A stretch of 32,367 nt of DNA from an uncultured Candidatus Saccharibacteria bacterium (GTDB lineage Bacteria > Patescibacteriota > Minisyncoccia > Phycocordibacterales > UBA12079): the NCBI GenBank assembly GCA_964449555.1, contig CAYUZR010000002.1, forward strand, positions 1 to 32,367, read 5' to 3'. The stretch's first letter is position 1. Every line of letters starts with the position of its first letter. The translations under genes and the position numbers were made by a program. Shown here one piece after another: positions 1,778 to 32,367 of the stretch. Below the pieces are notes generated by a model that had not been told where the DNA came from, ran no database searches, and saw nothing but the letters and a program-made list of their open reading frames with translations.

Positions 1778-1786
1778 TTCACCATT

Positions 1787-1990
1787 CTAAGCATCCCCTA
1801 CTTTTAAAACAGATTTAACTGATTCCTTATTTATCACAGGCAAAGTCCCTGGATGTGCCATACACACAGGACAAATGTTTATATTCGGTTTAGTTTCGTC
1901 TGGATCATTCTTCGAGTCACAAAACATCTTTGTGTTTGTCTTCAACTCAGCATGAATTTCCAATCCAATTGTAGGTTTGTATGTACCCAT
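1787..1990 (-). CDS. gatB: GatB N-terminal 67-aa fragment ending in an in-frame TAG
   Basis: MGTYKPTIGLEIHAELKTNTKMFC...CPVCMAHPGTLPVINKESV is the canonical GatB N-terminus. It is in the same frame as 572..1777. Confidence 0.9.
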   Translation of the reverse strand: MGTYKPTIGLEIHAELKTNTKMFCDSKNDPDETKPNINICPVCMAHPGTLPVINKESVKSVLKVGDA

Positions 1991-6160: not shown

Positions 6161-6321
6161 AATAATTTCAAAATTGGATGAGATCCAGTTTGGTTTTGTA
6201 AAAAATTACTCGTAGGGTACCGGGTAGCACACCTTCGCTACGCTTCGGGGGGGGTACCCGGTACGCCTCCCTCGTATTTTTTATCAAAACAAAACCGAAG
6301 ATCGCTAATTTTGGAATTATT
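6161..6321. repeat. long imperfect hairpin element A, with a nested 56-nt palindromic core (6209-6264); right end contains the ppsA stop
   Basis: Left end aataatttcaaaattgg (6161-6177) pairs with ctaattttggaattatt (6305-6321) at 15/17 positions, and the arms continue imperfectly inward. The core ctcgtagggtaccgggtagcacaccttcgctacgcttcggggggggtacccggtac recurs inside murB. Confidence 0.8.
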
Positions 6322-8287: not shown

Positions 8288-8350
8288 GTCTTCAGCAGTA
8301 GCAGAAGAACGAACAGCAACATCTACATTTGTATCTTTTTAATTTTTAGA

Positions 8351-8689
8351 TTATTTTTTATAAGCTTCAACAATTTCCTCTCCTAAATGTTTCGGAAATT
8401 TTGCTCGCATAATAATCCTACGAACTTTCGCACCTCGAGTCATCAAGTTTCGAATATCGTGAGTATCTAAATCAGCTAAAACTTTTCGAATCTTTTCTTT
8501 CGCACCACTTTCTTCAAGAAATTCATTATAAGCATGTGAACTAGTAGCAAAACCATTCGGAATATTTACTCCTTTCTTGGTTAGTTTTTGATACATCTCA
8601 CCTAGAGAAGCATTTTTTCCCCCAACAAGAGGAACATCTTTGTTTGTTAGTTCATTGAACCAGAATACATTCTTTGTTTGTTTTGTCAT
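8351..8689 (-). CDS. ppsA: PEP synthase N-terminal 112-aa fragment
   Basis: FWFNELTNKDVPLVGGKNASLGEMYQKL..GVNIPNGFATS matches the PpsA N-terminus. Same frame as 6317..8287. Confidence 0.88.
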   Translation of the reverse strand: MTKQTKNVFWFNELTNKDVPLVGGKNASLGEMYQKLTKKGVNIPNGFATSSHAYNEFLEESGAKEKIRKVLADLDTHDIRNLMTRGAKVRRIIMRAKFPKHLGEEIVEAYKK

Positions 8690-18854: not shown

Positions 18855-19052
18855 AATAATTACTCACAGACACCGAGTTACTCGCTCAGTTTTTAAAAAT
18901 AATTAAATTTTCTTAAGTATCAAATACTTTCGTCCTATCGGATTTCAAATATTTGATACTAGAAAATTCATTATTTTTCTAAAACTTCGCAGTAACATCG
19001 GTCTCTCGTTCGTAATTTCAAAAACCGAAATTCGCTGATTTTGGAATTATTT
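18855..19052. repeat. long imperfect hairpin element B between the ligase-like gene stop and the murB start
   Basis: Arms gacaccgagttactcgctcagtttttaaaaataat...agtatcaaata (18869-18927) pair with tatttgatact...aaaacttcgcagtaacatcggtctc (18950-19005). The right-terminal 35 nt (19019-19053) match 6289-6323 at 30 of 35 positions. Confidence 0.75.
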
Positions 19053-21206
19053 CCAGATTTCTTGGATGTAATACTCACCCTGTTCTTTAAAATTTGGATC
19101 TAATTTTATAACCCCATTAATAGCCTCAACAGCTTTTTGCTTAAAACCAGCTTCTGAATATGTTGCTGCCAAAGATAATAAGGTTTGGGCATCACCCGGA
19201 TTATTTTCGACTCTCAATTCAGCTATTGAAATTGCTTTTTGATAATTATTTTTTGAAAGATATGCTTGAATAAGTCGGTCATCATCAACTAATATCGTAC
19301 CAAAACCTTCAATCAACAAGTCTTCTGCTTGTTGAATTTCATCAATTTTTATAAGAGAGGTTGCATAGCCAATTCTTAAACTATCAAATTGTGGAGCTAA
19401 CTCAAATGCTTTTTTTATATATTCGTTAGCAGTACCTAAATCACCTTTGAATGTATAAACACTTCCTGTTAATTCCAAAAGAGAAATTTTATTAGGAGAT
19501 AATTCCAATGCTCTATCTAAATGTATTGCCGAATTATCAAGATCACCAATTCTACCCAGAAAAGTTCCTGTTATTGACTCAATTCTTGCATTATTTGAAT
19601 CTTCTTCAATTTGTTTTTCAAGATTAATCAATATCAAGTTAGCCATTTCTTGTTGTGCTTGTGGATTTAAAGAAGGAAGATATTTTATTCCTGCCTGAGC
19701 AAATTGCTCTCTTGCTTCTTGCCTCCCAACAAAACCATAAGAAATTGCTTTTTCAAAATATTCAAAATTCTTTGTAGGACTATCCTTGTGAGACTTCAAT
19801 GCATTCAATAAATTAAGATTTGTTGCTATTGGTTTTGCATTAAAGAAATAAATAGAGAAAAGAGCAGTAATAATAACCACAGGTATAGCAATAGAGTTAA
19901 TGCCATCAGAAATCTTAACTGTAGAAACTGTTTCTTCATCCACATTTATACTATGAATATATCCAAGAAGTGAGAAAAATAAGATGTAGCTAATTAAATG
20001 GTCAAAAACAAATAAATTATGGACAAAATACCCTACCAATAAACCAATTATTATACCTTTATCCAAAGTATTAAAATAATTATTTTCATCCTTAATTAAA
20101 TAATAAATAATTATCAAAAACAAAGCCAAATACCCCAGTAAGCCGAGCAAGCCTCCAGCAATTAACCAATCAAAGAAAACATTATGTGTTCTGTCGAACC
20201 ACTGTTCTTGATCGTACATATCTGGATTGTAATATTTATTGAAAACATAATTAAAGTTTTCTTGACCCCATCCCAAAACAGGATTTTCTTTAAAACCCTC
20301 CCAGGCCATTCCCCAAACCATAAAACGAGATCGTGTAGTTTTTTCCTCTAAAGAAATATCAGCTAAACGATTCAAAACAGGATGTTTATTAACAAAAGAG
20401 GTTTCTCTCATACTTATAAATAGACCAACAAAAACAACCAAACCAACAAGACTTCCTATACAAATTTTTCTCAATTTTTTATTTTGTCTTTCAAAAATAG
20501 CAACAACTAAACCAACAGTAAACATTCCTGCTAAAAAACCTAAAATAGCACCCCTCGTTCCTGTGTTATAGAGAATAACTGTTTGTAGAATTATTGCTAA
20601 ACCATAAAGCCATTTCAACAAACTATTTCCTCTTTCTCTGACCATGAAAAATAATGTTATGAAGATATGAAATAGCATATACACAGCTAAATAAGCCGAA
20701 TTTCCCATAGTAGCATCAAGCCTATCGGTACTTTGATGAATTTGGAATTTCCCCGCCATTTGCATTAAACCATAAAATCCCATTAACACACTGGCAAAAA
20801 TAGATATATTAAAAAACCGATGCCATAATTTCTCTGTCTGTAACACAGATGCGGTAACAACAAAAAATCCAAATAAATGCAACAAAGTTATCCAACCTTC
20901 CATTCTTTCAAAATTAGACCAAATACTTTTTAATGGATTTTCTCCTAAAATATCAGCTAAACCAATTATCGCAATGAACACCGCCGACAAAATAGCTATC
21001 CAAGAAAATTTTAATCTATACTTTTCATCTCTTAAAGCAAGAACAGCCCAAAGACACACCATTACCTCAACTAAAATTCTAAAAGCAAAAACTTTTCCTG
21101 TAATGAAGGGAAAAAATAAATTATTAAAAACCAAAAATGATATAAACGGAATTAAAAATACAATTCCTAAAATAGTGTTTCTTAAAATGTTATCTAAATT
21201 TTTCAT
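19047..21206 (-). CDS. O-antigen-ligase/polymerase-like (Wzy_C-type) polytopic membrane protein with a C-terminal TPR domain
   Basis: About 12 hydrophobic helices, then an ~240-aa soluble tail with TPR-like repeats (..LDRALELSPNK.., ..IKKAFELAPQF.., ..VENNPGDAQT.., ..VIKLDPNF..). The ATG at 21206 (MKNLDNILRN) is preferred over the track's TTG at 21314. Confidence 0.75.
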   Translation of the reverse strand: MKNLDNILRNTILGIVFLIPFISFLVFNNLFFPFITGKVFAFRILVEVMVCLWAVLALRDEKYRLKFSWIAILSAVFIAIIGLADILGENPLKSIWSNFERMEGWITLLHLFGFFVVTASVLQTEKLWHRFFNISIFASVLMGFYGLMQMAGKFQIHQSTDRLDATMGNSAYLAVYMLFHIFITLFFMVRERGNSLLKWLYGLAIILQTVILYNTGTRGAILGFLAGMFTVGLVVAIFERQNKKLRKICIGSLVGLVVFVGLFISMRETSFVNKHPVLNRLADISLEEKTTRSRFMVWGMAWEGFKENPVLGWGQENFNYVFNKYYNPDMYDQEQWFDRTHNVFFDWLIAGGLLGLLGYLALFLIIIYYLIKDENNYFNTLDKGIIIGLLVGYFVHNLFVFDHLISYILFFSLLGYIHSINVDEETVSTVKISDGINSIAIPVVIITALFSIYFFNAKPIATNLNLLNALKSHKDSPTKNFEYFEKAISYGFVGRQEAREQFAQAGIKYLPSLNPQAQQEMANLILINLEKQIEEDSNNARIESITGTFLGRIGDLDNSAIHLDRALELSPNKISLLELTGSVYTFKGDLGTANEYIKKAFELAPQFDSLRIGYATSLIKIDEIQQAEDLLIEGFGTILVDDDRLIQAYLSKNNYQKAISIAELRVENNPGDAQTLLSLAATYSEAGFKQKAVEAINGVIKLDPNFKEQGEYYIQEIWK

Positions 21207-21209
21207 GAT

Positions 21210-21678
21210 ATAGATTATAACGGAAAACAAATAGAGTTGAAAGAGATTAGAAAAGAAAGATATATAAGAGCATTCAAGCTGGCTAAAAAAGCTTTTGGCG
21301 GTTATAAAAAACAAATTGTCATCCTTTTAGGTCTTGGATTTTTAGGAGGTTTACTAGAAAGCCTTGGTGTAAACGCCATTATACCCCCTATTCTCTTTTC
21401 TTGATGGAACTTATTTGAAATCTGACGACATAATAATTAGAGTAATAAGAACTTTATTTGAATTCCTCCACATTCCTTTTACACTAAAATTCCTACTTAT
21501 ATCAATAGCTTCATTATTTATATTCAAAGCAATTGCTATATTCTATTCAAAATATCTTACAGAAAAAATATATGCTTCTTATATAAGAGATACACAAATG
21601 AAACTTTTTCGAAAAACTTTGGAGGCCTCCTGGCCGTATCTTTCCAAACAAAAAATCAGTTTTAAAGAGATTATTAAT
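21210..21678 (+). pseudogene. remnant of a low-GC ABC exporter (N-terminal transmembrane part only): no ATG, frameshifted at a C5 run, truncated
   Basis: Frame 1 reads ..YKKQIVILLGLGFLGGLLESLGVNAIIPP..TGA (21402-21404). Shifting one base at ccccc (21384-21388) gives LFSFLDGTYLKSDDIIIRV...LFRKTLEASWPYLSKQKISFKEIIN. This parallels residues ~25-175 of the 21674..23509 product. Confidence 0.75.
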
Positions 21679-23509
21679 CGCGACTACTATACATGCGCGC
21701 GAAATATGTCCCCTTCTCTTTAAGAAGTTCATCCGGCGTACCGGATTCAACAACCCGACCATCTTCGAGTACATACAACATATCCATCTCACGGACTGTT
21801 GAGAGCTGATGTGCGATGACACACACGGTAACCTTTCCCTTCAGCTCTTGGATGGTACGCTGGATATGTTGCTCAGATTCTGTATCCAACGCACTTGTCG
21901 CCTCGTCGAGCAAGAGAAGCTGGGGCTTGCGCGCCAAAGCACGCGCGATGGCGATACGCTGACGCTGTCCTGCTGAAAGCATGACACCGCGCTCGCCCAC
22001 CTTTGTGTTAAACCCTTCTGGGAGCTTTTCGATCACATCGTAAATATGCGCCCTCTTTGCCGCTTTTACGACATCTTCGTCGGATACATTTTCATCGAAA
22101 AAGCGAATATTTTCGCGCACCGTGTCATTTATTAAAAAAATATCCTGCGATACATAAGCGATATTTTTACGCCATATATTGATATCAATATTACTCACAG
22201 GTACACCATCCAACACTAAAGCACCTTTGGTCGGCTCGAGAAGTCTCAAAACAATATCAAACAAAGTTGTTTTACCAGAACCTGAGGGACCAATGATCCC
22301 TACCATAGCACCGTATGGAATTGATAAATTAACACCATTCAAAACATCGCCACCTGTATCGTAGGAAAATCCAATATCCTTAAACGCAAGCTCACGCTCA
22401 AATTGAAACGGCTTTGAATACTTTTTCTCTTTTTTATGTCGAACTTCTCGGTGTTTCGACGCCTCCTCACCGTATCTCAATACATTAGATGCGTATGGAG
22501 CCGCATCATTCATATTAAAGAGAATGGTCTGCCCAGACTGTACAGACGCAAAAATACGCTGAACCAAATAAACAATGGCAGCAAGTGCACCAACACTGTA
22601 AGATGTTTCATAATACGCAAACGCAACCACGACCGCAACAAAAATGACGGTAATCGGCTGAATAAAAATTACGACCAATTTCCTCAGCATAAAAGTGCGT
22701 ATATGTAACGCGCGGAATATTGAAAAAAAACTAACACCGATATCAGTAATCTTATCTTCCAAACCCATCGCTTTTACAATCTTCACGCCACCAAGATATT
22801 CATTTACTAGATGCGCAATACGCTTATTCATCTCAGCGGTTTCGCGGGCAGCGACACGACCTTTAGAAAAAACCGGTTTAAACACCAAAAACATCAAGGC
22901 ACCGATTCCTAACGCAAGAAATGTAATTGTTTCTGATATGTTGAGTGCAACAAAAAGATAAATTGCGAGCCCGGAAGCAAACATAATCATTTTCACAAAC
23001 AAATCAAGTAATGCTGCGGTTTGTAGCACATTAATTTTTAAAAGTGTTTCCAGATTTCCCTGTCGCTGTTTTAGGAGATATGGCCAACTTGCATAAAGTG
23101 TTCGCTTAAAAAGACGGTTCATCAAGTCCTCTTGATATTTTGTCTTAAGATGTACCTGTATGTAGTAAAAGGCTAGCAACACCACTGCTTTCAAAGTAAA
23201 AAGTGTCACAATGAGGGCGAGGATCGCAGGTAAAGTAAGCTCAATTCCTGTAAATGAAAAAGTGTTTAAAATCGCCTGTGATATAAAATCGTCTCCGGAC
23301 TGCCCATTTCCGATGAACACAGAAAACAATGGGATAAGCGCACTAATACCAACTGCTTCAAGAATACCACTTAAAAATCCCAATACTAAAAATATAGCCA
23401 CATATCTCCGGTATCCGGCAATCAAGCGCAATATGAGTCTTGCAGCTCTCCCCACCTCACTAAATTTTAGACGTTGCATAGTTAACATATGTATATGTAT
23501 ATTATTCAC
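21674..23509 (-). CDS. ABC exporter, fused permease plus ATPase (MsbA/PglK-like type I exporter)
   Basis: Six-helix TMD, then GPSGSGKTT (Walker A), LSAGQRQRIAIARAL (signature), LLLLDEATSALD (Walker B), IAHQLST (H-loop). The start is uncertain: GTG at 23509, or ATG at 23488 or 23479. Confidence 0.92.
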   Translation of the reverse strand: MNNIHIHMLTMQRLKFSEVGRAARLILRLIAGYRRYVAIFLVLGFLSGILEAVGISALIPLFSVFIGNGQSGDDFISQAILNTFSFTGIELTLPAILALIVTLFTLKAVVLLAFYYIQVHLKTKYQEDLMNRLFKRTLYASWPYLLKQRQGNLETLLKINVLQTAALLDLFVKMIMFASGLAIYLFVALNISETITFLALGIGALMFLVFKPVFSKGRVAARETAEMNKRIAHLVNEYLGGVKIVKAMGLEDKITDIGVSFFSIFRALHIRTFMLRKLVVIFIQPITVIFVAVVVAFAYYETSYSVGALAAIVYLVQRIFASVQSGQTILFNMNDAAPYASNVLRYGEEASKHREVRHKKEKKYSKPFQFERELAFKDIGFSYDTGGDVLNGVNLSIPYGAMVGIIGPSGSGKTTLFDIVLRLLEPTKGALVLDGVPVSNIDINIWRKNIAYVSQDIFLINDTVRENIRFFDENVSDEDVVKAAKRAHIYDVIEKLPEGFNTKVGERGVMLSAGQRQRIAIARALARKPQLLLLDEATSALDTESEQHIQRTIQELKGKVTVCVIAHQLSTVREMDMLYVLEDGRVVESGTPDELLKEKGTYFARMYSSRD

Positions 23510-24323
23510 TCGGTAGAATCTTCAAGCTCCTAGTTATATGTTTATCCGAAGTATGGGCACCCAAAAAAAATTTAAGTGGTCGGATCAAACGCAAAAAATT
23601 ATCCTGCTTCCAGGCAGTATCGTAACTAATTGTATTGAGACGCGATGCGTCATGACGAACTCGACTCCCTCCCGCAATATGCGTCGACGAGGTCGCCGAA
23701 TTCCAGTCTGAAAACGGCGGGAGACCAAATCCTGACATAATCGCTTCGGAAATGCTCTCAGGTGCCGCGCAAAAATCTTTATAACAAAGAGTTGTGTATG
23801 GGATACCAATTTCACGAAGAGAGCGTGTAAAACGTCGTCGTTGCTGTGCCCAGCGCTTGAAGTTGAGCAGATCGCCGATTATCGGCGGGGCGACATCTGT
23901 TCTTCGCATTGAGTACGCCCACGCGCTCGGCTCTTTCATAAGGTACACCGCACGCACATCATACCCAGCAGCTAGAGCAACCTTAGACCCCACTTGAAAG
24001 CCCTCTATGGTTTTCGAAGCGTCTATGACAACACTATACTTCTTTAGCGCGGGAGAATGAAGTACATCATTATACCATCCTTCAAGATTATTAGCAGTAC
24101 GAGGAACCGATGACCAGAATGGACATCCACCGAGAGTTTGGCCACAAGTACACTCGCGCCCTTCTGTTGGGCGAAGTTCTTGACGAGGCATTTCACCTGC
24201 AACTTCGCCAAGCGCTACCGCCCCCGGATATCGCGAAAGGTATGCATTGAGCACAGTAGAGCCACTACGACCAAGGCCAATAATATACAAAAAAAGCTTT
24301 GGGTGTTTGTTTATTTTGTTCAT
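23502..24323 (-). CDS. sulfotransferase-family protein
   Basis: PAPS 5'-phosphosulfate-binding loop IIGLGRSGSTVL near the N-terminus. A later VYLMKEPSAWAYSMRR region sits where the 3'-phosphate-binding motif lies. This is the most GC-rich gene in the window. Confidence 0.7.
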   Translation of the reverse strand: MNKINKHPKLFLYIIGLGRSGSTVLNAYLSRYPGAVALGEVAGEMPRQELRPTEGRECTCGQTLGGCPFWSSVPRTANNLEGWYNDVLHSPALKKYSVVIDASKTIEGFQVGSKVALAAGYDVRAVYLMKEPSAWAYSMRRTDVAPPIIGDLLNFKRWAQQRRRFTRSLREIGIPYTTLCYKDFCAAPESISEAIMSGFGLPPFSDWNSATSSTHIAGGSRVRHDASRLNTISYDTAWKQDNFLRLIRPLKFFLGAHTSDKHITRSLKILPSE

Positions 24324-24341
24324 AATGTGATATTCATAGTA

Positions 24342-25514
24342 TCATTTTTTGTACTCTTTATTAAGTATCTTCTTATATATCTCGTATACCGCCTCATCGA
24401 ACGGCTGTTTATTTTCCATTGCACGACGGGCTTCTTTACTCATCATTTCTACCTTGTCGCGATGATCATAAAGATACTTAATCTTTTCCCCGAGCGACTT
24501 TGCATCACGGACAGGAACCACAAAACCGGTTTTGCCATCTTCGACGATACTCTGCGCATTCTCGGTAGTAACAATTGGTAAACCGCAAGCCATCGCTTCC
24601 ATAACCACCTTCGGATTTCCCTCTGCAAGTGAAGGCAAAGCAAACACTGATGCTTCTCTATAATGTTCTTCCGGTTGTGATGTGTTGCCGACCCATCGTA
24701 TACTCGAATTCTGAGCAATGCGCCTGATGTAACTCTGTTTAAGTTCCTCTGGCATTTCTCCATAACTACCAATAAGAACTAATTCCGCATTCTTTAGATT
24801 CAGTGATTCCCACGCGTCCAAAAGATAGTGCAGACCTTTGTGCAGTTTCGTATATGCGGCATATAGCACTCGAAATGGCTCTTCCTTGGAGCGCGGTTGC
24901 CTAGGTGGCGTAAATCGTTTTATATCAATATCCGTGTTAGCGACAAAAATCCGCTCTGCAGGATACCCCTGTGCAATATAAGAACGCTTCACAAAATCAG
25001 AAATAGCAATGACATAATCAAATTCATTGAGATGCCCACTTGTACGAGCATATTCGGCAAAGAAACCTTTGTATAGAGAGAAGCCAAGTAATCGTGATTC
25101 TTCTCTTTCTAAATCAGCACTGAATTGCATGTGCCCATTCCTTGTGATATCAACCGTAATGGAGCCGTTTTTTTGCGACTTTCGCAAAGTTCGCGGCAAA
25201 AAACGTCCGTCATGAAATAGAACTACATCGGTTTTTTGTAGCCGATATTGAGTGCAAAAATCAAAACGCTCTTCCCGCTGTCTTCGAGAGGGAAATGTAA
25301 GATTGAAAGCTTTCTCCACCCCCCTAAAGAAGTAATGAATAATGGTTGGTATGGCCTGTACGGTATTTTTAAAATAAAAATCCGTATTAGTCCTACAAAT
25401 AACCTGGGTCAATTCACCTGTTTTTGAAAAAACATTGATGACGGGCAAAATATTAGCTGTGGGATGACTTGTCTTCTTTCCCAAATCTGCGAATGTGATG
25501 ACGGAAATCGACAT
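24342..25514 (-). CDS. GT4-family glycosyltransferase (Glycos_transf_1), paralogue of 29795..30949
   Basis: LPSLAEGNPKVVMEAMACGLPIVTTENAQSIVEDGKTGFVV is the E-x7-E GT4 C-terminal motif. TGA stop. Confidence 0.88.
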   Translation of the reverse strand: MSISVITFADLGKKTSHPTANILPVINVFSKTGELTQVICRTNTDFYFKNTVQAIPTIIHYFFRGVEKAFNLTFPSRRQREERFDFCTQYRLQKTDVVLFHDGRFLPRTLRKSQKNGSITVDITRNGHMQFSADLEREESRLLGFSLYKGFFAEYARTSGHLNEFDYVIAISDFVKRSYIAQGYPAERIFVANTDIDIKRFTPPRQPRSKEEPFRVLYAAYTKLHKGLHYLLDAWESLNLKNAELVLIGSYGEMPEELKQSYIRRIAQNSSIRWVGNTSQPEEHYREASVFALPSLAEGNPKVVMEAMACGLPIVTTENAQSIVEDGKTGFVVPVRDAKSLGEKIKYLYDHRDKVEMMSKEARRAMENKQPFDEAVYEIYKKILNKEYKK

Positions 25515-25518
25515 ATAT

Positions 25519-27480
25519 TTATTTCTTTATAATAACCGCTATCGCATCTTTGCCTCGTATTGGATTAGTACTCTTCAAACTTTCAAAAAAGTGAATCTCT
25601 TTAATCTGCGTTTCAAGAATCTTTTTCTCTTCTGGGGTGGAAAGGGGAGATGACCATACACCGGTTGTCTTAAGATTTTTTAACAACTCAAGTGTTGTGG
25701 GTACATCTGAGCGTTCAAAACCCTCGGGCTGATATCGCAAATCTTCTATAAAGAAGAGTCCGCCTGAAGTAAGATGAGGAAACAAATAAGATAGAGTGAT
25801 CTGTTGATGTGGCGATGCATGAAGCGCGTCTTCTACCACAATATCAAGCTTTTTTTCTATATCTAATATTTTTTTAAGGTCATCGCGAGAACCCTGATCG
25901 CCTTGAACAATAAAAGATTTTTTATCTTTGGATTGTTTAAACGTACTAATATCAAATCCGATAATAGTAGCGTTCGGCAAATAATCACGCCACATGCGTA
26001 GCGATGGAGCCGTGGGATACAACTCTTCACTACTACCTCTACGATTACGATCCTGTTTTGAACTAATCTGAAATTTATCTCGCAATAATCCTATTTCACA
26101 TAATGTAAATTCTTCGGACCTTTTGTTTTTGAAAAAGTGGTCATAAACACGAATATAATTATGTTGACCTACACCTTTATCTGTTTTTACCTTATTTGCA
26201 AATCGCATTAAATCGTTAGCGCGATACAACTTCACCCAATAAGCACAATACTTCATAAAAGCAAGTGGATTCAACCCAATTTTAAATACTAAATCAAATA
26301 ACTTATATATTGAGTTCATATCATTTGTTGAATTTTTATGTAAATACTTTTTTTTGTATGCTTTTGCTATTAGCATCGAATATTTTTCAGCGGTTTTGCG
26401 AATGTCGAATTCTTCCGCTGTTTTTCTCGCGTTTTTGCTTATCTTTTCGTAGTCTGCATATACCATCTTTTCAAAACTTTCTACAACAGCATCTACAGAT
26501 GATTCCGGTATGAAAAAACCGTTTTCTCCGTCAACAAGCAATTCGTCTGTGCCAGCAGTTTTCGTCGAGACAAGCGGTAAACCTGACGCAAGTGCTTCAA
26601 GATAAGCAATACTCAACCCTTCAATATCAGACGTGGACACAAAAATATCGCTCATTTTATAGAACTTTTCGATATCACGACGTAGACCAAAGAGTATTAC
26701 CACACCATCAAGCCCCAATTCTCGAACACGCGCCTCAAGCTTTTTGCGCATTCCCCCCTCGCCTGCTACCGCCAACTTATATTCCGGATGCTTCTTATGA
26801 AAACGCGCAAAGCCCTCAAGCATAAGCATATGATTTTTCTTAGGCTTCAGCCCCGCCACGTTTAAGAGCACCTTGTCAGACGTCTTGAATCCAAGTTCCT
26901 GTTTAAGCGTATCTTTTGACGGTAAAGCCGCGATCGCGGATTGTATTTTTTCTATATCGACACCGTTTTTAATCACTACAAATTTATTTTTTGGTATGCG
27001 TTCCTGCTTGATAGTAAAGTCAGCGACCGTATTTGAAACAGCAATGATACGGTACGACAATCGCGCCAACCATCTATCAAGAGTTATTTTCGCCCACGTT
27101 TTATCAACATAAGTGTTGTGCTCAATAGGTATAACCACATAACCCATAAATAACTTGAGTATCCTCACGATGGTATTACTAAAGAAAAGATTGGGCATCA
27201 CAACATCTGGTTTAATAGACCGCAGCGTCTTATAAAACTCCACCCAACTTGAAATATCTTTGAAACCATGAAAGTTTAGTTTATACACCGGAAGCCACGA
27301 TGGCAATTCATCATACAGTACTACTTTACCTGGAATCTGAGAGAGTGTGATAAACGAAAGATCAATGGTATTTTTATCTAACAGAGGCATCAACTCTGTC
27401 AATTGTTTCTCCGCACCACCAACACAAAAGTTATCTATAACAATTGCGACTTTTATTTTTTGTGAATTAATTATTTTCAT
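25519..27480 (-). CDS. bifunctional fusion: GT4 glycosyltransferase (aa 1-387) plus SAM-dependent methyltransferase-like domain (aa 388-653)
   Basis: N-terminal part: VSTSDIEGLSIAYLEALASGLPLVSTKTAGTDELLVDGENGFF. C-terminal part begins at the internal ATG at 26319 (MNSIYKLF) and is colinear with the 30953..31732 product (APSLRMWR.YLP, GDQ.SR.DL, DDALHASPHQQITLS.LFPH..SGG.FFIEDLR). Confidence 0.85.
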   Translation of the reverse strand: MKIINSQKIKVAIVIDNFCVGGAEKQLTELMPLLDKNTIDLSFITLSQIPGKVVLYDELPSWLPVYKLNFHGFKDISSWVEFYKTLRSIKPDVVMPNLFFSNTIVRILKLFMGYVVIPIEHNTYVDKTWAKITLDRWLARLSYRIIAVSNTVADFTIKQERIPKNKFVVIKNGVDIEKIQSAIAALPSKDTLKQELGFKTSDKVLLNVAGLKPKKNHMLMLEGFARFHKKHPEYKLAVAGEGGMRKKLEARVRELGLDGVVILFGLRRDIEKFYKMSDIFVSTSDIEGLSIAYLEALASGLPLVSTKTAGTDELLVDGENGFFIPESSVDAVVESFEKMVYADYEKISKNARKTAEEFDIRKTAEKYSMLIAKAYKKKYLHKNSTNDMNSIYKLFDLVFKIGLNPLAFMKYCAYWVKLYRANDLMRFANKVKTDKGVGQHNYIRVYDHFFKNKRSEEFTLCEIGLLRDKFQISSKQDRNRRGSSEELYPTAPSLRMWRDYLPNATIIGFDISTFKQSKDKKSFIVQGDQGSRDDLKKILDIEKKLDIVVEDALHASPHQQITLSYLFPHLTSGGLFFIEDLRYQPEGFERSDVPTTLELLKNLKTTGVWSSPLSTPEEKKILETQIKEIHFFESLKSTNPIRGKDAIAVIIKK

Positions 27481-28094
27481 TTTTCTAGGAATACATAATA
27501 ACCACTTGTCTGTTTAGACTCTAACTTGCCTGACAATATATCAAGTATATTACCACATTTTTTAAAGACAGTGTATCTTCCAAGAGGCCTCAACTTAAAC
27601 CACGTGGCAATAGCCCGTCTTACTTTGATTATCTCACATTTAGCAAACGGCTTTGAGAGCCAACGCAATCCATCTTCGGTAAATCTCCAAAAGTCACCAT
27701 AATAACCTTTTTCTGCATGATAATAATATAGAAAAGGAACATATATGAAAGCGTAACCTCCCGGCCTCAGCACACGATATATTTCCTTATAGGCTTTAAT
27801 AGGGTTCTCCACGTGTTCTAATACAGCCATACAAATAATGGCGTCGATGGAATTATCATCAAACGGCATATTATGAACATCTCCAACTATATCCGGATGA
27901 TAAGTGTCTACCGGATCCATTATTTTATAATCAACCTTTTCAACATAAGACCTCAACCATTCTCTCGACGAATCGTATCTATTATTCTTATCCTTCATCA
28001 AGCGCAGTCCGCCTCCGATATCAATAACCTCTTTTTTTTCTTTAAAGATTCTAGTTACCCTCTCGTTAAAAAATTTTTGCCAAGGTGTATTCAT
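27477..28094 (-). CDS. class I SAM-dependent methyltransferase (Methyltransf_11-like)
   Basis: VIDIGGG, IDAIICMAVLEHVENP, LRPGGYAFIYVP. ATGA start/stop overlaps at both ends. Confidence 0.85.
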   Translation of the reverse strand: MNTPWQKFFNERVTRIFKEKKEVIDIGGGLRLMKDKNNRYDSSREWLRSYVEKVDYKIMDPVDTYHPDIVGDVHNMPFDDNSIDAIICMAVLEHVENPIKAYKEIYRVLRPGGYAFIYVPFLYYYHAEKGYYGDFWRFTEDGLRWLSKPFAKCEIIKVRRAIATWFKLRPLGRYTVFKKCGNILDILSGKLESKQTSGYYVFLEK

Positions 28095-29146
28095 ATAAAT
28101 GCAATTATATCATCTGCTCTTCTCTCCCAAGTAAATTCTCTTACTCGCTGGGTAGCCTTAGTGGCTTTGATTTGAGCCTCATCATACCTTTCTAACACTT
28201 CAGAAATCCTTTTGGTTACATCATTTGAATTATTCGGATCAAATAGGTATGCGGTAGATTCATCCAAAACCTCTCGTATTGACGGCAAATCTGTGGACAC
28301 TATTGGATTTCCACTCGCCATATATTCAAACATTTTAAGTGGCGACATATATTTGGTATAGTGTTTTGTGTTCGGATAATTCATCACAAGAATATCAACA
28401 GCTTTCATATAGACAGGCACCTCACAGGGTTTAGCTTTAGAGACTATTAAAAGTTCCACTTCTGGATGTCTTTTCTTAACATCACTAATCACTTTATCCA
28501 ATTCCCCAACTCCCTTCTCTTCTCCCATCGTCTTGAGTTTACCAACATACGCAATAATTTTTTTATTTAGGGGAAGATCGAGCCTCTTTCGCAGTTGTTC
28601 CTTTGAATTTTTTATACTTTCAAATACATTCAAATCCACCCCGCTCGGTGCGACCATTATTTTTTCTTTAGAAACGCCGAAAGATAGGTAATATTCTTTC
28701 AATCCGTTGCTAATAACCACAAGCTTATTCAATCTCTTAAGCAATCCCGCCACAACCCATTTCTTCTTCGCTGTATGTGATTCCCATACAATATTTTTTT
28801 TAAAAAAACTTAAGTAAGAAAGAGAGAGTTCATCCCGACCATAGATGATATCCACCTTCTTGAATAATACATAAAAAAAGGCAGACACCGCAAAAGAGAG
28901 TGCCTGAACCAAAAATCCAATTTTACCAAACCGAACAAAGTCCAATGTCGGCAACTTGGTGATTTTAAAGCACTCTTCCATTCCATAATGCTGAAAAGGA
29001 CTTTCCTTCGAGACATTGTACCTGCGGGGCACCACAAGCTCCACAACGTTACCGTGCAAGACAAAAGCCTCGCACATCTTCATCGTTGCAAGCCCGTGTG
29101 CTTTACCGGTTGGGATGCGAATATTGGCGAGATAATACATTTTCAT
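28091..29146 (-). CDS. GT4-family glycosyltransferase
   Basis: GT-B layout with KYMSPLKMFEYMASGNPIVSTDLPSIREVLDESTAYLF (E-x7-E-like). ATGA overlaps. Confidence 0.8.
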   Translation of the reverse strand: MKMYYLANIRIPTGKAHGLATMKMCEAFVLHGNVVELVVPRRYNVSKESPFQHYGMEECFKITKLPTLDFVRFGKIGFLVQALSFAVSAFFYVLFKKVDIIYGRDELSLSYLSFFKKNIVWESHTAKKKWVVAGLLKRLNKLVVISNGLKEYYLSFGVSKEKIMVAPSGVDLNVFESIKNSKEQLRKRLDLPLNKKIIAYVGKLKTMGEEKGVGELDKVISDVKKRHPEVELLIVSKAKPCEVPVYMKAVDILVMNYPNTKHYTKYMSPLKMFEYMASGNPIVSTDLPSIREVLDESTAYLFDPNNSNDVTKRISEVLERYDEAQIKATKATQRVREFTWERRADDIIAFI

Positions 29147-29808
29147 AATTGTTTTTTGATACGTTCATGCACTATAATAGCATTTTCTGTAAGTGATTTT
29201 GTGCCGTCTATCTTTATTGTTGAAATACCTTTTGTGGCAAGTGCCAAAAGAATATCCTGTTGAGTTTGCTGGGACCGACTCTGTGACTCCTGAAGTCCAC
29301 CTACTCTACGACCCGGCTCTCGCTTTTTCATTCTGGCGATAGACTCTTCTACCGGCGTGTCCACAAAAACTAATAATGACTCCTTAGGAAGTCTATTATA
29401 AATAAGATCTATTACAGCCGTCTTGCTAAGAATGTTTCTTATTGCAAGATTAGAAAGTCTTTGAATATATCCCGCATCCCATAATACTATAATGTTGTTT
29501 TGATGGGTAGTTTGATATTGAAGTTTTTGATGCTCATGTAGTCGTGTAATTAGTTTTTCAAGACTTGAACCTTTTGCGCGTGATAGTTTATATAGCAATA
29601 CAGCGATCGAAAAATCAAGATATTGCGGGCGTAACAACATCCAAAAAAGTTTATATTTCCAGGTTCTATTTTCTGGAAAAAAGTTTTCCCTTGTAGCACA
29701 AGGCAAATATTCTCTTTCAAACATTTTCCTCACTTCTTCTACCAGGGTAGTCTTTCCTGAGCCCGGTATACCTATAAATTCTATATACATAACATTAATG
29801 AGAGCCAT
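29143..29808 (-). CDS. P-loop NTPase, nucleoside/nucleotide-kinase-like small-molecule kinase candidate
   Basis: FIGIPGSGKTTLVEEV (Walker A), LWDAGY, LLVFVDTPVEESIARMKKR (dNK/TMPK-like layout). The alternative start ATG at 29790 (MYIEFIG) avoids overlap with the upstream gene. Confidence 0.6.
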   Translation of the reverse strand: MALINVMYIEFIGIPGSGKTTLVEEVRKMFEREYLPCATRENFFPENRTWKYKLFWMLLRPQYLDFSIAVLLYKLSRAKGSSLEKLITRLHEHQKLQYQTTHQNNIIVLWDAGYIQRLSNLAIRNILSKTAVIDLIYNRLPKESLLVFVDTPVEESIARMKKREPGRRVGGLQESQSRSQQTQQDILLALATKGISTIKIDGTKSLTENAIIVHERIKKQL

Positions 29809-30949
29809 TCTCGCGTCTTAAGATTTCTTGATAAATTTCGAACACCGCTTCTCCGAATGGTTTTTTATGCTCCACCACCTTACGCGCTTCTCTGCCCATA
29901 CGCTCTGCCACATCTCTATTGTCATACAAGTACCTGATTTTTTCTGCGAGAGCTTGAGCGTCTCGTATCGGTACTACAAAACCACTTTTTCCGTCTTCAG
30001 ATACACTTTGTGCGTTTGTGGTTGTAATAACAGGCAATCCATGTGCCATTGCCTCCATCACCACTTTCGGATTTCCCTCGGTAAGCGAAGGTAACACAAA
30101 CGCAGACGCCCTACGATAATACTTTGCTGGCATATCGGTACTTCCCTCCCACGTAATACTTGAGTCTTTCTCTATTATACTATCGCAATACTTTTTAAGT
30201 TTATCCGGAACATCTCCGCTGTATTTTCCTACCAATGTTAATTCAGCATTTGGTAATTTTAGTTTTCGCCACGCATCAAGAAGATATGGTAGACCCTTGC
30301 GCGCATTAGTATAAGAAAGGTAAAGCACTCTAAATTTATCCTCCTTGTGTATCTGCTCCGGTGCTGGCGGCAAATTAATATCAGTACACGCAACAAAAAC
30401 TCTTTCTGATGGAAATCCATACTTAATGTAAGAAGATTTAACAAAATCAGAAATGGCAATGATGTAATCAAACGATTTAACAAGGGTACTCATCTTTTCA
30501 AACGACTCTGTATTCAGGGAGCTTTCAAATTTTCGATGTTCTTCCGTGTGAATATCTTTATCAAACAAAGGGTGTGCAACAGTGGCAATACCAACAGCAA
30601 TACTCCCATTTCGTTTTGCTTTCTCTACAACACCCCCAAACCGAGATGGTGGATGAACGATAACAATGTCGGTTGGCTCAAGTCTCCACTTTACAAAGAG
30701 ATGCGACAACATACCATACAACCGCTCAAATGAAAGCCCTAAAATTTTTTCGAGCGCTCGCAGAGGGTATCTTACAAAAGAAGGAATCGCCGAGTATGTA
30801 TTCGGAAAATGAAAATCAGTATTGATCTGGCATATTACTTGCTTTAGCTCTCCCCTGCATGCAAGCTCTTCAATTACCGGAAGGATCCCCGGCGTTTTGA
30901 GATTAGTTTTTTTACCCAAATTAGCAACTGTAACAATTGAAACTGACAT
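29795..30949 (-). CDS. GT4-family glycosyltransferase, paralogue of 24342..25514
   Basis: LPSLTEGNPKVVMEAMAHGLPVITTTNAQSVSEDGKSGFVV. Colinear with the 24342..25514 product from MS.S..T.A.LGKKT onward. Confidence 0.88.
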   Translation of the reverse strand: MSVSIVTVANLGKKTNLKTPGILPVIEELACRGELKQVICQINTDFHFPNTYSAIPSFVRYPLRALEKILGLSFERLYGMLSHLFVKWRLEPTDIVIVHPPSRFGGVVEKAKRNGSIAVGIATVAHPLFDKDIHTEEHRKFESSLNTESFEKMSTLVKSFDYIIAISDFVKSSYIKYGFPSERVFVACTDINLPPAPEQIHKEDKFRVLYLSYTNARKGLPYLLDAWRKLKLPNAELTLVGKYSGDVPDKLKKYCDSIIEKDSSITWEGSTDMPAKYYRRASAFVLPSLTEGNPKVVMEAMAHGLPVITTTNAQSVSEDGKSGFVVPIRDAQALAEKIRYLYDNRDVAERMGREARKVVEHKKPFGEAVFEIYQEILRRENGSH

Positions 30950-30952
30950 GAA

Positions 30953-31732
30953 TTATTTTTTTATAATAGCGACGAGAGCATCTGCGCCAAATATTGGATC
31001 AGAACCTTTTAAGCTTCCAAAAAAGTGAATTTCTTTTACTTGTGTTTCAAGGATATTTTTCTCTTCAGGTGTAGAAAGGGGGGAATTCCATTTACCGGTT
31101 TCAGCAAATGTTCTAAGTAAATCGAGAGTTTTTGGTACATCTTCACGCTCAAACTCTTTAGGTTGATGACGTAAATCTTCGATAAAGAAGATCCCCCCAG
31201 AGTTAACATGAGGAAATAGAAAAGAAAGTGTGATTTGTTGGTGTGGAGATGCATGCAATGCATCATCAATAATAACGTCGTATTCTGAATATTTGTCAAC
31301 AATCTTCTGAAGATCCTCACGCGAACTCTGATCTCCCTGAATAATTGTACATTGAGGATCATTCGGTTGCGCAAATTTCCTAATATCAAAACCAACAAGT
31401 GAAGCCTTCGGTAGATATTTTCGCCACATACGCAAAGACGGTGCTACCATGTTTGTATCAGTTAAAAGTGGTTTTCGCATTCTCCCCCTAAGAAGACCAA
31501 CCTCACAGAACTGTAAATTCTCATTTCTACGAGAACGCAAGAAAAAATCATACGCTCGTACATAATTATGACCCGGGATACCCTTATCGGTGTATTCTTC
31601 GCCCGCAAACTGCAATAAATCATTGTACCTGTACTGTTTGAGATGGCACACAAAATATTTAGCAAATGCCTTAGGACTTGTAAATATTTTTTTAAACAGT
31701 GAAAGTGCTTTTTTTAACTTTTTTACATTCAT
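30953..31732 (-). CDS. SAM-dependent methyltransferase-like protein, paralogue of the C-terminal domain of 25519..27480
   Basis: TDKGIPGHNYVRAYDFF, FCEVGLL, APSLRMWRKYLPKA, IIDDALHASPHQQITLSFLFPHVNSGGIFFIEDL. Confidence 0.8.
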   Translation of the reverse strand: MNVKKLKKALSLFKKIFTSPKAFAKYFVCHLKQYRYNDLLQFAGEEYTDKGIPGHNYVRAYDFFLRSRRNENLQFCEVGLLRGRMRKPLLTDTNMVAPSLRMWRKYLPKASLVGFDIRKFAQPNDPQCTIIQGDQSSREDLQKIVDKYSEYDVIIDDALHASPHQQITLSFLFPHVNSGGIFFIEDLRHQPKEFEREDVPKTLDLLRTFAETGKWNSPLSTPEEKNILETQVKEIHFFGSLKGSDPIFGADALVAIIKK

Positions 31733-31739
31733 ATTTTTA

Positions 31740-32367
31740 CTATTTTTCTACACCTACTCTAACAAAATCTCTACCTGTATGCAGTACGGTTGGTGTTGTT
31801 CCAAAAATTCTACCTAAAACTTCGATACCGTCCGTACCTTTTCGAATATCAATTATCAATCTACCCCCTTTGTTAAGTTGCCTATAAACATCATCTATAT
31901 ATGTATCTACAGAAAAATGAAAACCCCAAGAAAGTAACGACATCACCAGATCAAAATTTTCAGCAGGAAACGGCGATGTCGAAATATCAATAGTCTTAAT
32001 TTTCTCAGCCGGTACACCATTATCCTCCAGAAAACTACGAGTGCATTGAAAAGAGTGGTAATGAGGAAAATCTTTTGCAGAAACGTGATAACCCCCGTGC
32101 CGCGTAGGCGACACACCCTCTTTATCGAGCAAGTACAAAGTGGGGCTCGAGTCAAAATGATGATAGAGCGTTAAATCTATACCGCCCAATCCGGCGCCGA
32201 TATCAAGCGTGGCGCTCGGAGAAGAAGGAAGATATGCTTGTATCGTGTCGAGGATGTCATTCATCTCATCTTTATGGAGCTCCTCCACCCTCTTTTTATT
32301 GAATAGCTCATATAACTCAAAAATATAACCGGCACCTCCATGATCATAAAATTGTTTTAAACCCAAT
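31740..32367 (-). CDS. class I SAM-dependent methyltransferase; the 5' end probably lies beyond the window
   Basis: LDIGAGLGGIDL (motif I), FDLVMSLLSWGFH, LNKGGRLIIDI. The ORF is open to the right edge, and the track's M is a TTG. Confidence 0.75.
   Translation of the reverse strand, partial: LGLKQFYDHGGAGYIFELYELFNKKRVEELHKDEMNDILDTIQAYLPSSPSATLDIGAGLGGIDLTLYHHFDSSPTLYLLDKEGVSPTRHGGYHVSAKDFPHYHSFQCTRSFLEDNGVPAEKIKTIDISTSPFPAENFDLVMSLLSWGFHFSVDTYIDDVYRQLNKGGRLIIDIRKGTDGIEVLGRIFGTTPTVLHTGRDFVRVGVEK

What the first reader, a model, noticed from the sequence alone, without database searches (positions are those of the whole stretch)
21207..21680. A decayed low-GC ABC-exporter remnant ends exactly where the GC-richer gene block begins
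The + strand at 21210-21404 reads ..YKKQIVILLGLGFLGGLLESLGVNAIIPP.. and then hits TGA. Shifting one base at the C5 run (21384-21388) continues it as LFSFLDGTYLKSDDIIIRVIRTLFEFLHIPFTLKFLLISIASLFIFKAIAIFYSKYLTEKIYASYIRDTQMKLFRKTLEASWPYLSKQKISFKEIIN.

This is colinear with the N-terminal ~150 aa of the intact exporter encoded on the opposite strand at 21674..23509 (YRRYVAIFLVLGFLSGILEAVGISALIPLFSVF..GDDFISQAILNTF..LFKRTLYASWPYLLKQRQGNLETLL). The two are clearly divergent, so this is a homologue and not an inverted copy.

The remnant has no in-frame ATG and one frameshift. It stops being recognisable at about 21675, within a few nt of the stop codon (21674-21676) of the intact gene, tail to tail. 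Base composition jumps at the same place: hand counts give 18/60 GC for 1321-1380 and 35/60 for 23881-23940.

My reading is that a foreign glycan cassette carrying its own exporter replaced the body of a native, divergently transcribed exporter next to the native ligase-like gene. The alternative is that two genomes were joined here by the assembler.
Basis: partly seen in the sequence, partly recalled or inferred. Interest (0 to 1): 0.72.

Follow-up and report, generated by a model that had tools for sequence, protein, structure and literature searches.

The report
Scar of a swapped glycan-export operon
A small low-GC bacterium of the Patescibacteria group swapped its native surface-sugar operon for a roughly 13-kb cassette from another Patescibacteria lineage, and the first 140-145 codons of the old exporter gene remain as a dead stump; this is a clear but ordinary case of surface-glycan island replacement.

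Summary
The + strand at 21237-21654 reads as the N-terminal part of an ABC-exporter membrane domain. It is broken by one extra C in the run at 21384-21388. It is 40% identical to the intact exporter at 21674..23488(-) (E=2e-26) and 55% identical to its best database homologue.

The junction is not an assembly artefact. Five independent assemblies cross it at 99.8% identity or better.

GC, GC3 and tetranucleotide signature all change at about 21.67 kb. They return to the native values about 13 kb further on, just beyond the window. So the GC-richer block is an island flanked by native DNA.

The same cassette sits next to the ligase-like gene in other Patescibacteria. Their SecA is only 63% identical to the window's, while the cassette proteins are 77-82% identical. 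That points to horizontal transfer of the cassette.

Distant relatives (L007, L033) still carry an intact exporter transcribed divergently from the ligase gene.

One point is unresolved: the crossover lies either at the stop codon, or 20-30 nt earlier at the microhomology CCAAACAAAAA. I favour the second. This is a new member of a known kind, of moderate interest.

The parts
19047..21206 (-). Native Wzy_C (O-antigen-ligase-like) plus TPR membrane protein, 719 aa, starting at ATG 21206. It is the fixed neighbour of the variable glycan slot.
   Evidence: Pfam Wzy_C E=5e-23 plus TPR families. GC3 is 0.21, like the housekeeping genes. Downstream synteny with MurB and SecA is conserved in L009 and L105.
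21207..21236 (.). Short divergent intergenic region. A -10-like TATAAT sits on the minus strand at 21214-21219, 7 nt before the ligase ATG. It was seen by eye only.
   Evidence: Sequence. The window aligns with relative L105 through to 21243. The promoter scan found nothing above shuffled controls, so a promoter role is inference.
21237..21654 (+). Stump (pseudogene) of the native, divergently transcribed ABC exporter ('exporter A'). It covers about 140 codons of the N-terminal membrane domain, has a possible TTG start, and is truncated after ..WPYLSKQK.
   Evidence: GC3 is 0.22. It keeps 56 of 70 family-consensus residues, and all of the 90%-or-more conserved ones before KQK.
21384..21388 (+). 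C5 run carrying a +1 frameshift (C4 to C5). It leads to a premature TGA at 21402-21404.
   Evidence: L002-L005 and L104 are identical here. L001 has a scaffold gap at 21391-21407.
21644..21673 (.). Junction zone of 30 nt, also present directly after the exporter stop in L009 (3 differences). It is either the last 10 codons of the stump or the cassette's own 3' flank. CCAAACAAAAA at 21644-21654 is a candidate microhomology for the crossover.
21674..23488 (-). Intact incoming exporter ('exporter B'), 604 aa, a fused TMD-NBD half-transporter. Its stop is TAA 21674-21676, followed by a second in-frame TAA at 21671-21673.
   Evidence: Pfam ABC_membrane plus ABC_tran. Best NCBIfam matches are HepA, MsbA and PglK, all below their cut-offs. 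It is called as 604 aa in other assemblies. It is 92%, 77% and 73% identical to the exporters of L009, L011 and L015.
23502..32367 (-). Remainder of the GC-richer glycan cassette inside the window. It holds a sulfotransferase-like gene, four GT4 glycosyltransferases (one fused to a methyltransferase domain), methyltransferases and a thymidylate-kinase-like gene. It continues about 2.3-2.6 kb past the window end.
   Evidence: Pfam. GC and GC3. Colinear with L011, L012 and L015. The right edge was located in L016.

Best explanation
The window comes from a low-GC Patescibacterium. Named homologues are Parcubacteria-group lineages, and Ca. Campbellbacteria has the nearest named ligase.

Its ancestor carried a glycan operon headed by an ABC exporter ('exporter A'). 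That operon was transcribed divergently from the Wzy_C/TPR ligase-like gene.

A roughly 13-kb glycan cassette arrived from another Patescibacteria lineage with about 40-45% GC. It carried its own exporter ('exporter B'), GT4 glycosyltransferases, methyltransferases and a sulfotransferase-like gene. It replaced everything from about codon 140-150 of exporter A onwards, in the opposite orientation.

The left join was illegitimate, meaning it lay outside any conserved flanking gene. It probably formed at the microhomology CCAAACAAAAA, 20-30 nt past the exporter B stop. The remaining 5' stump no longer codes for a transporter. It has since picked up one +1 frameshift and is decaying.

Exporter B now supplies the export or flipping step for the glycan that the retained ligase-like protein handles.

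- Shown: homology, the frameshift, the reality of the junction, both island edges, greater similarity of the cassette than of housekeeping genes across lineages, and the existence of the divergent layout in relatives.
- Inferred: the direction of transfer, the recombination mechanism, the timing, and the biochemical role of exporter and ligase.
For: - Junction reality: five assemblies from different samples and pipelines span 21600-21750 at 99.8-100% identity.
- Stump homology: E=2e-26 to exporter B, E=1e-38 to P0001, and tblastn 4e-40 to a full-length exporter.
- Native composition of the stump: GC3 0.22, against 0.18-0.28 for 14 left-hand genes and 0.28-0.41 for 10 island genes.
- Island with two edges: GC is 0.35-0.43 from the junction to L016 position about 7000, then 0.25-0.34.
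- Tetranucleotide correlation is 0.97-0.98 among native chunks, including the far flank. It is 0.82-0.92 between native chunks and the island, and 0.94-0.96 between the island and the L011 cassette.
- Horizontal history, window vs L011: SecA is 63% identical at the protein level (dS 2.5), but cassette proteins are 77-82% identical (dS 0.8-1.1).
- Horizontal history, window vs L009: SecA dS is 1.55 and exporter B dS is 0.23, with a 1.3-kb tract at dS 0.12.
- Ancestral layout: L007/L008 and L033 have a ligase with a divergently transcribed exporter. That exporter's N-terminus is the stump's best match, at 55%.
- Variable slot: upstream of the ligase lies cassette B in L009, L011-L015; a Wzx-type locus in L105; and no exporter within 4 kb in most of the 80 other loci.
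- Freshness of the stump: it keeps 56 of 70 consensus residues, against 48-69 in functional members.
Against: - No sister genome with an intact exporter A closer than 55% identity was found. The native status of the stump therefore rests on composition and on synteny in distant relatives.
- In every other lineage that carries cassette B, it abuts the ligase co-directionally with gaps of 33-103 nt and no stump. On parsimony alone, that layout could be ancestral and the stump the newcomer.
- The 30 nt after the exporter stop are shared with L009. In the stump's frame they read exporter-like: p=3e-4 for the whole stretch and p=0.006-0.04 after KQK. If that is true homology, the junction predates the window-L009 split. 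The stump would then be better preserved than neutral decay predicts: P(no stop) is 0.29 to 0.011 for 0.05-0.23 substitutions per site.
- No integrase, tRNA or direct repeats mark the island ends.
- All evidence comes from short-read assemblies of one nearly clonal population.
Confidence: 0.78

Rival explanations
1. Two steps rather than one replacement. The cassette first inserted somewhere downstream in the native glycan locus. One or more later deletions then removed the body of exporter A and the rest of the old operon, up to the end of exporter B.
For: The final structure would be identical. Relative L009 shows that deletions do occur in this spacer, if its 30-nt flank is a stub. Small reduced genomes are known to lose unused DNA (general knowledge).
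Against: A deletion would have to end within 0-30 nt of the exporter B stop without damaging it, while still leaving 420-435 nt of stump. Nothing in the data separates this from a single event.
Confidence: 0.12
2. Reverse polarity. The lineage already had cassette B next to the ligase, as L009, L011 and L015 do. A piece carrying a different ligase allele, together with the first ~420-435 nt of a neighbouring divergent exporter A, was then imported and replaced the resident ligase.
For: Cassette B directly abuts the ligase in four lineages. The ligase has its own history: the window's ligase is 75% identical to L105's but 57% to L009's, while SecA and PIF1 are closer to L009.
Against: Stump and ligase have the same GC3 (0.21-0.22) and tetranucleotide signature as 19 kb of housekeeping genes. 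The GC-rich block is bounded by native-type DNA on both sides. Cassette genes, not the ligase, are the ones unexpectedly similar across deep lineages.
Confidence: 0.06
3. The stump is still a working small gene. It could be a truncated two-to-three-helix membrane protein switched on and off by slippage in the C run, or the 102-aa TTG ORF at 21415..21723.
For: It shows no in-frame stop other than through the frameshift. It fully retains the highly conserved residues before KQK. A possible TTG start is present. A scaffold gap sits exactly at the C run in one assembly.
Against: It lacks four of six membrane helices and the whole ATPase domain. The other assemblies that cover the run all agree on C5. 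The preservation is explained if the event is recent. L009 lacks it entirely apart from the 30 nt.
Confidence: 0.03
4. Assembly chimera: two co-occurring genomes were joined at about 21670.
For: There is a sharp GC step. One contig (L003) ends at 21663, and another (L006) ends inside the stump at 21341.
Against: Five independent assemblies cross the join. There is no repeat at the join. Native composition returns after 13 kb. The same gene order occurs in diverged relatives.
Confidence: 0.01

Closest known systems
Replacement of surface-polysaccharide loci by horizontal transfer. Examples are O-antigen and capsule serotype switching in Vibrio cholerae O139, Streptococcus pneumoniae cps and Klebsiella K loci, and the 'replacement flexible genomic islands' described in marine bacteria (from my own knowledge, not checked in papers here).
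   Same: A glycan gene cluster occupies a fixed chromosomal slot and has different content in related genomes. It has atypical composition, and its genes are more similar across lineages than housekeeping genes are.
   Different: In the classic cases the crossover lies in conserved flanking genes and leaves no scar. Here the left join cuts a native gene, and the incoming block is inverted relative to the old operon. The hosts are Patescibacteria, where I found no description of this. That rests on two literature searches only, and only the returned titles and abstract openings were seen.
Homology-facilitated illegitimate recombination, as described for naturally transformable bacteria such as Acinetobacter and S. 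pneumoniae (own knowledge).
   Same: One end of a foreign segment is joined at a short microhomology inside a resident gene. The candidate here is CCAAACAAAAA at 21644-21654.
   Different: The homologous anchor at the other end was not identified. The right edge instead shows a 164-nt hairpin element. The mechanism is inferred, not demonstrated.
ABC-type glycan exporters or flippases of the MsbA, PglK, Wzk and HepA kind, paired with a Wzy_C-domain ligase (WaaL or PglL type).
   Same: Exporter B and the stump's family are fused TMD-NBD half-transporters. Their best NCBIfam matches are HepA (344 bits), MsbA (303 bits) and PglK (236 bits). The gene is adjacent to a Wzy_C protein and to glycosyltransferases.
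   Different: All scores are far below the curated cut-offs of 725, 602 and 1000 bits. The membrane domain alone matches solved structures only weakly: BmrA/MsbA, E=0.003. The substrate and the acceptor are unknown.

Membership tests
Type IV ABC exporter half-transporter (PF00664 membrane domain plus PF00005 ATPase) | N-terminal six-helix ABC_membrane domain | tested here: met
   Exporter B matches PF00664 at residues 38-316, E=2.7e-8. The stump aligns with residues 14-142 of exporter B and with the N-termini of 120 family members. It covers only the first third of the domain, and Pfam alone does not detect it.
Type IV ABC exporter half-transporter (PF00664 membrane domain plus PF00005 ATPase) | C-terminal nucleotide-binding domain with Walker A, signature and Walker B motifs | tested here: met
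   Exporter B matches PF00005 at E=3.8e-35. GPSGSGKT, LSAGQRQR and LLLLDEATSALD are visible in the translation. The stump has no such domain, so it is a remnant of a member and not a member.
MsbA, PglK or HepA equivalogs (NCBIfam) | Score above the curated equivalog cut-off | tested here: not met
   HepA_fam 344 bits against 725, MsbA 303 against 602, PglK 236 against 1000. It works like this class but is not filed as any of these.
Pseudogene or gene remnant | Significant homology to a functional family, together with a disrupted frame and truncation | tested here: met
   E=1e-38 to P0001. A +1 frameshift in the C5 run leads to TGA. The sequence ends at about codon 140-150 of roughly 600.
Pseudogene or gene remnant | Loss of purifying selection | tested here: inconclusive
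   The stump keeps 56 of 70 consensus residues, within the range of functional members. No second allele exists to measure dN/dS, because all assemblies are identical here.
Horizontally acquired replacement-type glycan island | Compositional discontinuity at both ends, with native DNA beyond | tested here: met
   GC, GC3 and tetranucleotide profiles. The right edge lies outside the window, in L016 and L017.
Horizontally acquired replacement-type glycan island | Island genes more similar between lineages than housekeeping genes | tested here: met
   dS and protein identities for window vs L009 and vs L011.
Horizontally acquired replacement-type glycan island | Same slot holds different content in related genomes | tested here: met
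   Exporter A operon in L007 and L033. Cassette B in L009 and L011-L015. A Wzx locus in L105. No exporter within 4 kb in most of L024-L103.
Horizontally acquired replacement-type glycan island | Recombination in conserved flanking genes, or mobility genes or att sites at the borders | tested here: not met
   The left join lies inside exporter A or at its edge. The window holds no tRNA and no Rfam hit, and Pfam scans of its genes and of the genes checked at the island's right edge showed no integrase. A Y1_Tnp-like gene lies about 5 kb beyond the right edge, and a hairpin element sits at that edge. A link to the transfer is untested.
Assembly chimera | Join present in one assembly only, with no independent support | tested here: not met
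   Five assemblies span it. Read-level coverage could not be examined with these tools.

The most novel reading that the evidence does not exclude
Cassette B may be a discrete mobile 'serotype module'. Under this reading it repeatedly lands directly upstream of the Wzy_C/TPR ligase gene in deeply divergent Patescibacteria (SecA about 63% identical). Its left end would always be the exporter stop codon. Delivery would use a directed mechanism, perhaps involving the hairpin element at its right border and the nearby Y1 (IS200-like) transposase-like gene, rather than chance recombination followed by selection.
Probability: 0.1. Interest if true: 0.7.

Novelty: new member of a known kind. Interest (0 to 1): 0.38.

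Why it matters
Patescibacteria are tiny bacteria. Those studied so far live attached to host cells, and their surface glycans are likely to decide which host they attach to and which phages attack them.

This locus gives direct sequence evidence for two things:
- A whole glycan-synthesis and export cassette moves between distantly related Patescibacteria.
- It replaces the resident operon at a fixed slot beside a conserved ligase-like gene.

The stump records what was there before and where the crossover took place, which clean homologous replacements never show. It also gives a concrete marker for following glycan-type turnover in metagenomic time series.

The general phenomenon is well known in other bacteria, so this extends existing knowledge rather than changing it.

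Tried and rejected
- **Alternative genetic code (TGA as Gly, code 25 or 4).** Rejected. Reading TGA as sense does not extend the stump, because a TAG follows. It does not heal the split PPDK and GatB genes, whose in-frame stops are TAA and TAG. It would also fuse island genes.
- **Pfam on the repaired stump alone.** No hit, because the stump is too short. Homology had to be shown by BLASTP and phmmer instead.
- **Promoter and terminator scan of 20900-22000.** Nothing above shuffled controls and no terminator.
- **tRNA and Rfam scans of the window.** Nothing found, so there is no tRNA-type integration site.
- **Genome-contig scan with the stump.** It found only two distant exporters (L022 and L023), neither next to a ligase. 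The window's own species was not found among the representative genomes.
- **A second scar at the right edge.** A 42-aa ORF at L016 6721-6849 looks like a glycosyltransferase N-terminus, but neither Pfam nor local tblastn supports this. It stays unverified.
- **Closest ligase relative, L105 (75% identity).** Its 910-nt upstream region holds no exporter remnant.
- **'Too well preserved' argument for selection on the stump.** The simulation gives P(no stop) of 0.29-0.011, depending on the assumed age. That is not decisive.
- **PDB search with the membrane domain.** Only weak BmrA/MsbA matches, so there is no finer functional assignment.
Full report
**What is in the sequence**

On the + strand, frame 1 from 21207 reads DIDYNGKQIELKEIRKERYIRAFKLAKKAFGGYKKQIVILLGLGFLGGLLESLGVNAIIPPILFS. 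It then stops at TGA 21402-21404. The frame entered at 21388 continues LFSFLDGTYLKSDD...LEASWPYLSKQKISFKEIINRDYYTCARNMSPSL*. The switch point is the C5 run at 21384-21388. With one C fewer the text becomes IIPLFSFLDGTY, which matches the best database homologue P0001 (IIPLFSFLSEGG) residue for residue.

The repaired peptide is 40% identical over 130 aa to residues 21-149 of the 611-aa ORF at 21674..23509, i.e. residues 14-142 of the 604-aa exporter (E=2e-26). It is 55% identical to P0001 (E=1e-38). It is 52% identical to a full-length exporter of a Patescibacteria MAG that carries both ABC_membrane and ABC_tran domains. The stump has 30% GC, yet 5000 shuffles never gave a stop-free frame.

TTG at 21237 lies two codons after the position that aligns with the start codon of P0001. 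'No in-frame ATG' is therefore true, but a start codon may still be present.

**Surroundings**

- Left of the stump, all on the minus strand, lie the Wzy_C plus TPR ligase-like gene (19047..21206), MurB, SecA, a PIF1-type helicase, enolase, Obg, GatB and others.
- Right of it, also on the minus strand, lie the intact exporter (604 aa from ATG 23488) and a sulfotransferase-like gene.
- Further right are GT4 glycosyltransferases (one fused to a methyltransferase domain), methyltransferases and a thymidylate-kinase-like gene.
- GC is 0.25-0.39 up to 21.5 kb and 0.33-0.48 after it.
- GC3 is 0.18-0.28 for the 14 left genes, 0.22 for the stump and 0.28-0.41 for the 10 right genes.
- Both blocks use the standard code. 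Reading TGA as sense repairs nothing.

**Is the junction real?**

An exact-protein look-up of the ligase returned contigs from different samples and pipelines (ENA, JGI, Logan). Four of them cross the junction at 99.8-100% identity to the window: L001, L002, L004 and L005. A fifth, L104, comes from yet another JGI sample and also crosses it, with two SNPs, both inside the ligase gene.

Three other breaks were seen. L003 ends at 21663, L006 ends at 21341, and L001 has a scaffold gap at 21391-21407. These could hint at heterogeneity or simply at A-rich sequence. No intact variant of the old exporter turned up in the protein database.

A 19.9-kb JGI contig, L016, overlaps the window's last 5.5 kb at 99.96% and runs on beyond it. 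The GC-rich stretch ends about 2.3-2.6 kb past the window end. It is followed by at least 6.8 kb of 0.25-0.34 GC carrying more GT4 genes. Tetranucleotide frequencies correlate at 0.97-0.98 among the four left-hand chunks and this far flank. They correlate at only 0.82-0.92 with the island. So the GC-rich block is an island of about 13 kb inside native DNA, and the chimera alternative is excluded as far as assemblies can show.

**Where the two exporters come from**

Homologues of the intact exporter that carry an organism name are nearly all Patescibacteria, at 44-50% identity; a few are labelled only 'bacterium'. A tight group stands out: P0003 at 92%, P0005 and P0006 at 77%, and P0007 at 73%. 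In their contigs (L009, L011-L014, L015) the same cassette and exporter lie directly upstream of a Wzy_C/TPR gene and co-directional with it. The gaps are 103, 37 and 33 nt. SecA follows the ligase in L009 and in the longer L011-group contigs, with MurB between them only in L009.

The host genomes, however, are far apart.

- **Window vs L011.** SecA is 63% identical at the protein level and the ligase 39%. The cassette proteins are 77-82% identical (dS 0.8-1.1 against 2.5 for SecA).
- **Window vs L009.** dS is 0.23 for the exporter, 0.78 for MurB, 1.55 for SecA and 2.2 for the ligase.
- **Mosaic exporter, window vs L009.** Codons 21-452 have dS 0.12 and codons 453-604 have dS 0.64. This indicates further recombination.
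- **Cassette composition.** The cassette keeps 0.36-0.48 GC in all four lineages, while their flanks range from about 0.32 to 0.46.

The cassette is therefore horizontally mobile among Patescibacteria, and it is foreign to this low-GC host.

**The stump's relatives**

The stump's best homologue, P0001, is the front part of an exporter in L007/L008. That exporter is transcribed divergently from a 720-aa Wzy_C/TPR gene and is followed by glycosyltransferase genes. GC is uniform at about 0.35.

I surveyed 80 metagenomic loci with ligase homologues. One more divergent case was found (L033, also 55% to the stump). A few are co-directional, and most have no exporter within 4 kb. The closest ligase relative, L105 (75% identity), has the same downstream synteny. 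Upstream it has a Wzx-type locus on the other strand and no remnant.

The slot upstream of the ligase is thus hypervariable.

**Where exactly is the crossover, and how old is it?**

The 30 nt that follow the exporter stop (21644-21673) recur after the exporter stop in L009, with 3 differences. Beyond them the two sequences diverge completely. In the stump's frame these 30 nt read (S)KQKISFKEIIN.

- SKQK fits the family consensus strongly (p=2e-4).
- The eight residues after it fit weakly: p=0.037 for the window version and p=0.006 for the L009 version.
- Before KQK the stump keeps every one of the residues that are 90% or more conserved in the family.
- After KQK the invariant Gly and the 93%-conserved Leu are both lost.

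This allows two readings.

(a) The stump runs to the stop codon and L009 keeps a 30-nt stub of it. The event then predates their split, and the stump is better preserved than expected. A neutral simulation gives P(no stop) of 0.29, 0.08 and 0.011 at 0.05, 0.11 and 0.23 substitutions per site.

(b) The 30 nt are the cassette's own 3' flank, and the join formed at the microhomology CCAAACAAAAA (21644-21654). The event is then recent and specific to this lineage.

Reading (b) fits the uneven preservation better, and I favour it at roughly 60:40. The data do not settle the point.

**Function**

Exporter B is a fused membrane-domain plus ATPase half-transporter. Its best curated matches are HepA, MsbA and PglK, all below their cut-offs. 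It is next to glycosyltransferases and a Wzy_C protein. From that I infer that it exports or flips a lipid-linked glycan which the ligase-like protein then transfers or polymerises. This is inference from family knowledge and was not tested.

No terminator is predicted between exporter B and the ligase. Read-through into the ligase is therefore possible, as the 33-37-nt gaps in relatives suggest.

**Comparison and verdict**

This is surface-glycan locus replacement by horizontal transfer, a well-known process in other bacteria. It is seen here in Patescibacteria, with an unusually informative scar and an illegitimate left join.

- Two literature searches returned no title or abstract describing it for this group.
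- I rate it a new member of a known kind, of moderate interest.
- The most novel reading still open is that the cassette is a directed mobile module targeting the ligase gene.

Noticed in passing
window 8339-8353 and 1787-1789 (minus strand): Two housekeeping genes carry in-frame stop codons. The PPDK/PpsA-like gene (6317..8689) has two TAA within YKK*SKN*KD. GatB (572..1990) has a TAG at VGDA*NGE. Homologues (from my own knowledge of these families, not checked here) would be expected to have Leu or Tyr at these positions, so they look like single-base changes. They are not TGA, so an alternative code does not explain them.
   Followed up: partly
L016 6843-7006, about 2.4-2.5 kb beyond the window's right end: A 164-nt element with perfect 18-nt terminal inverted repeats (ACTCTGAATTACGAAACT / AGTTTCGTAATTCAGAGT) sits where the GC-rich island meets native DNA. 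It folds into one long hairpin (DNA -41.5 kcal/mol, z=-10.3). It interrupts a 42-aa ORF. No other copy was found in the window or in the fetched loci, apart from the same site in L017.
   Followed up: partly
L016 922-1605: A 227-aa gene with a Y1_Tnp (IS200-like transposase) domain (E=1e-7) is embedded among native GT4 genes, about 5 kb beyond the island's right edge. It could relate to the hairpin element. This was not tested.
   Followed up: no
window 22131-23430 compared with L009: The intact exporter shows mosaic similarity to the L009 lineage. A 1.3-kb tract is 94-99% identical (dS about 0.1). It is flanked by 74-92% identity upstream and 82-89% downstream (dS 0.64-0.76). This indicates recent recombination between the two lineages inside the gene.
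   Followed up: yes
window 21391-21407 (L001), 21663 (end of L003), 21341 (end of L006): Several independent assemblies break or have a scaffold gap inside or at the edge of the stump. One gap sits next to the C5 frameshift run. The cause could be strain heterogeneity or just low-complexity sequence.
   Followed up: no
window 25519-27480 and 29143-29808 (minus strand): The cassette encodes a 653-aa GT4 glycosyltransferase fused to a C-terminal methyltransferase-like region, and a thymidylate-kinase-like P-loop protein. Both are conserved in the L011 and L015 cassettes. Together with the sulfotransferase-like gene at 23502..24323, they suggest a methylated and possibly sulfated glycan.
   Followed up: no
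L105 2783-3693: In the closest ligase relative, the 910 nt upstream of the ligase have no called gene. They contain at least four long GC-rich perfect hairpins, for example CTGAACGCCCCACCCTCTTAGAGGGTGGGGCGTTCAG. They lie next to an HTH_17 (excisionase-like) gene.
   Followed up: no
window 19047-21206 compared with L009 and L105: The ligase gene has a history different from its neighbours. It is 75% identical to L105's ligase and 57% to L009's, whereas SecA and PIF1 are closer to L009. The ligase may itself be exchanged or be under diversifying selection.
   Followed up: partly
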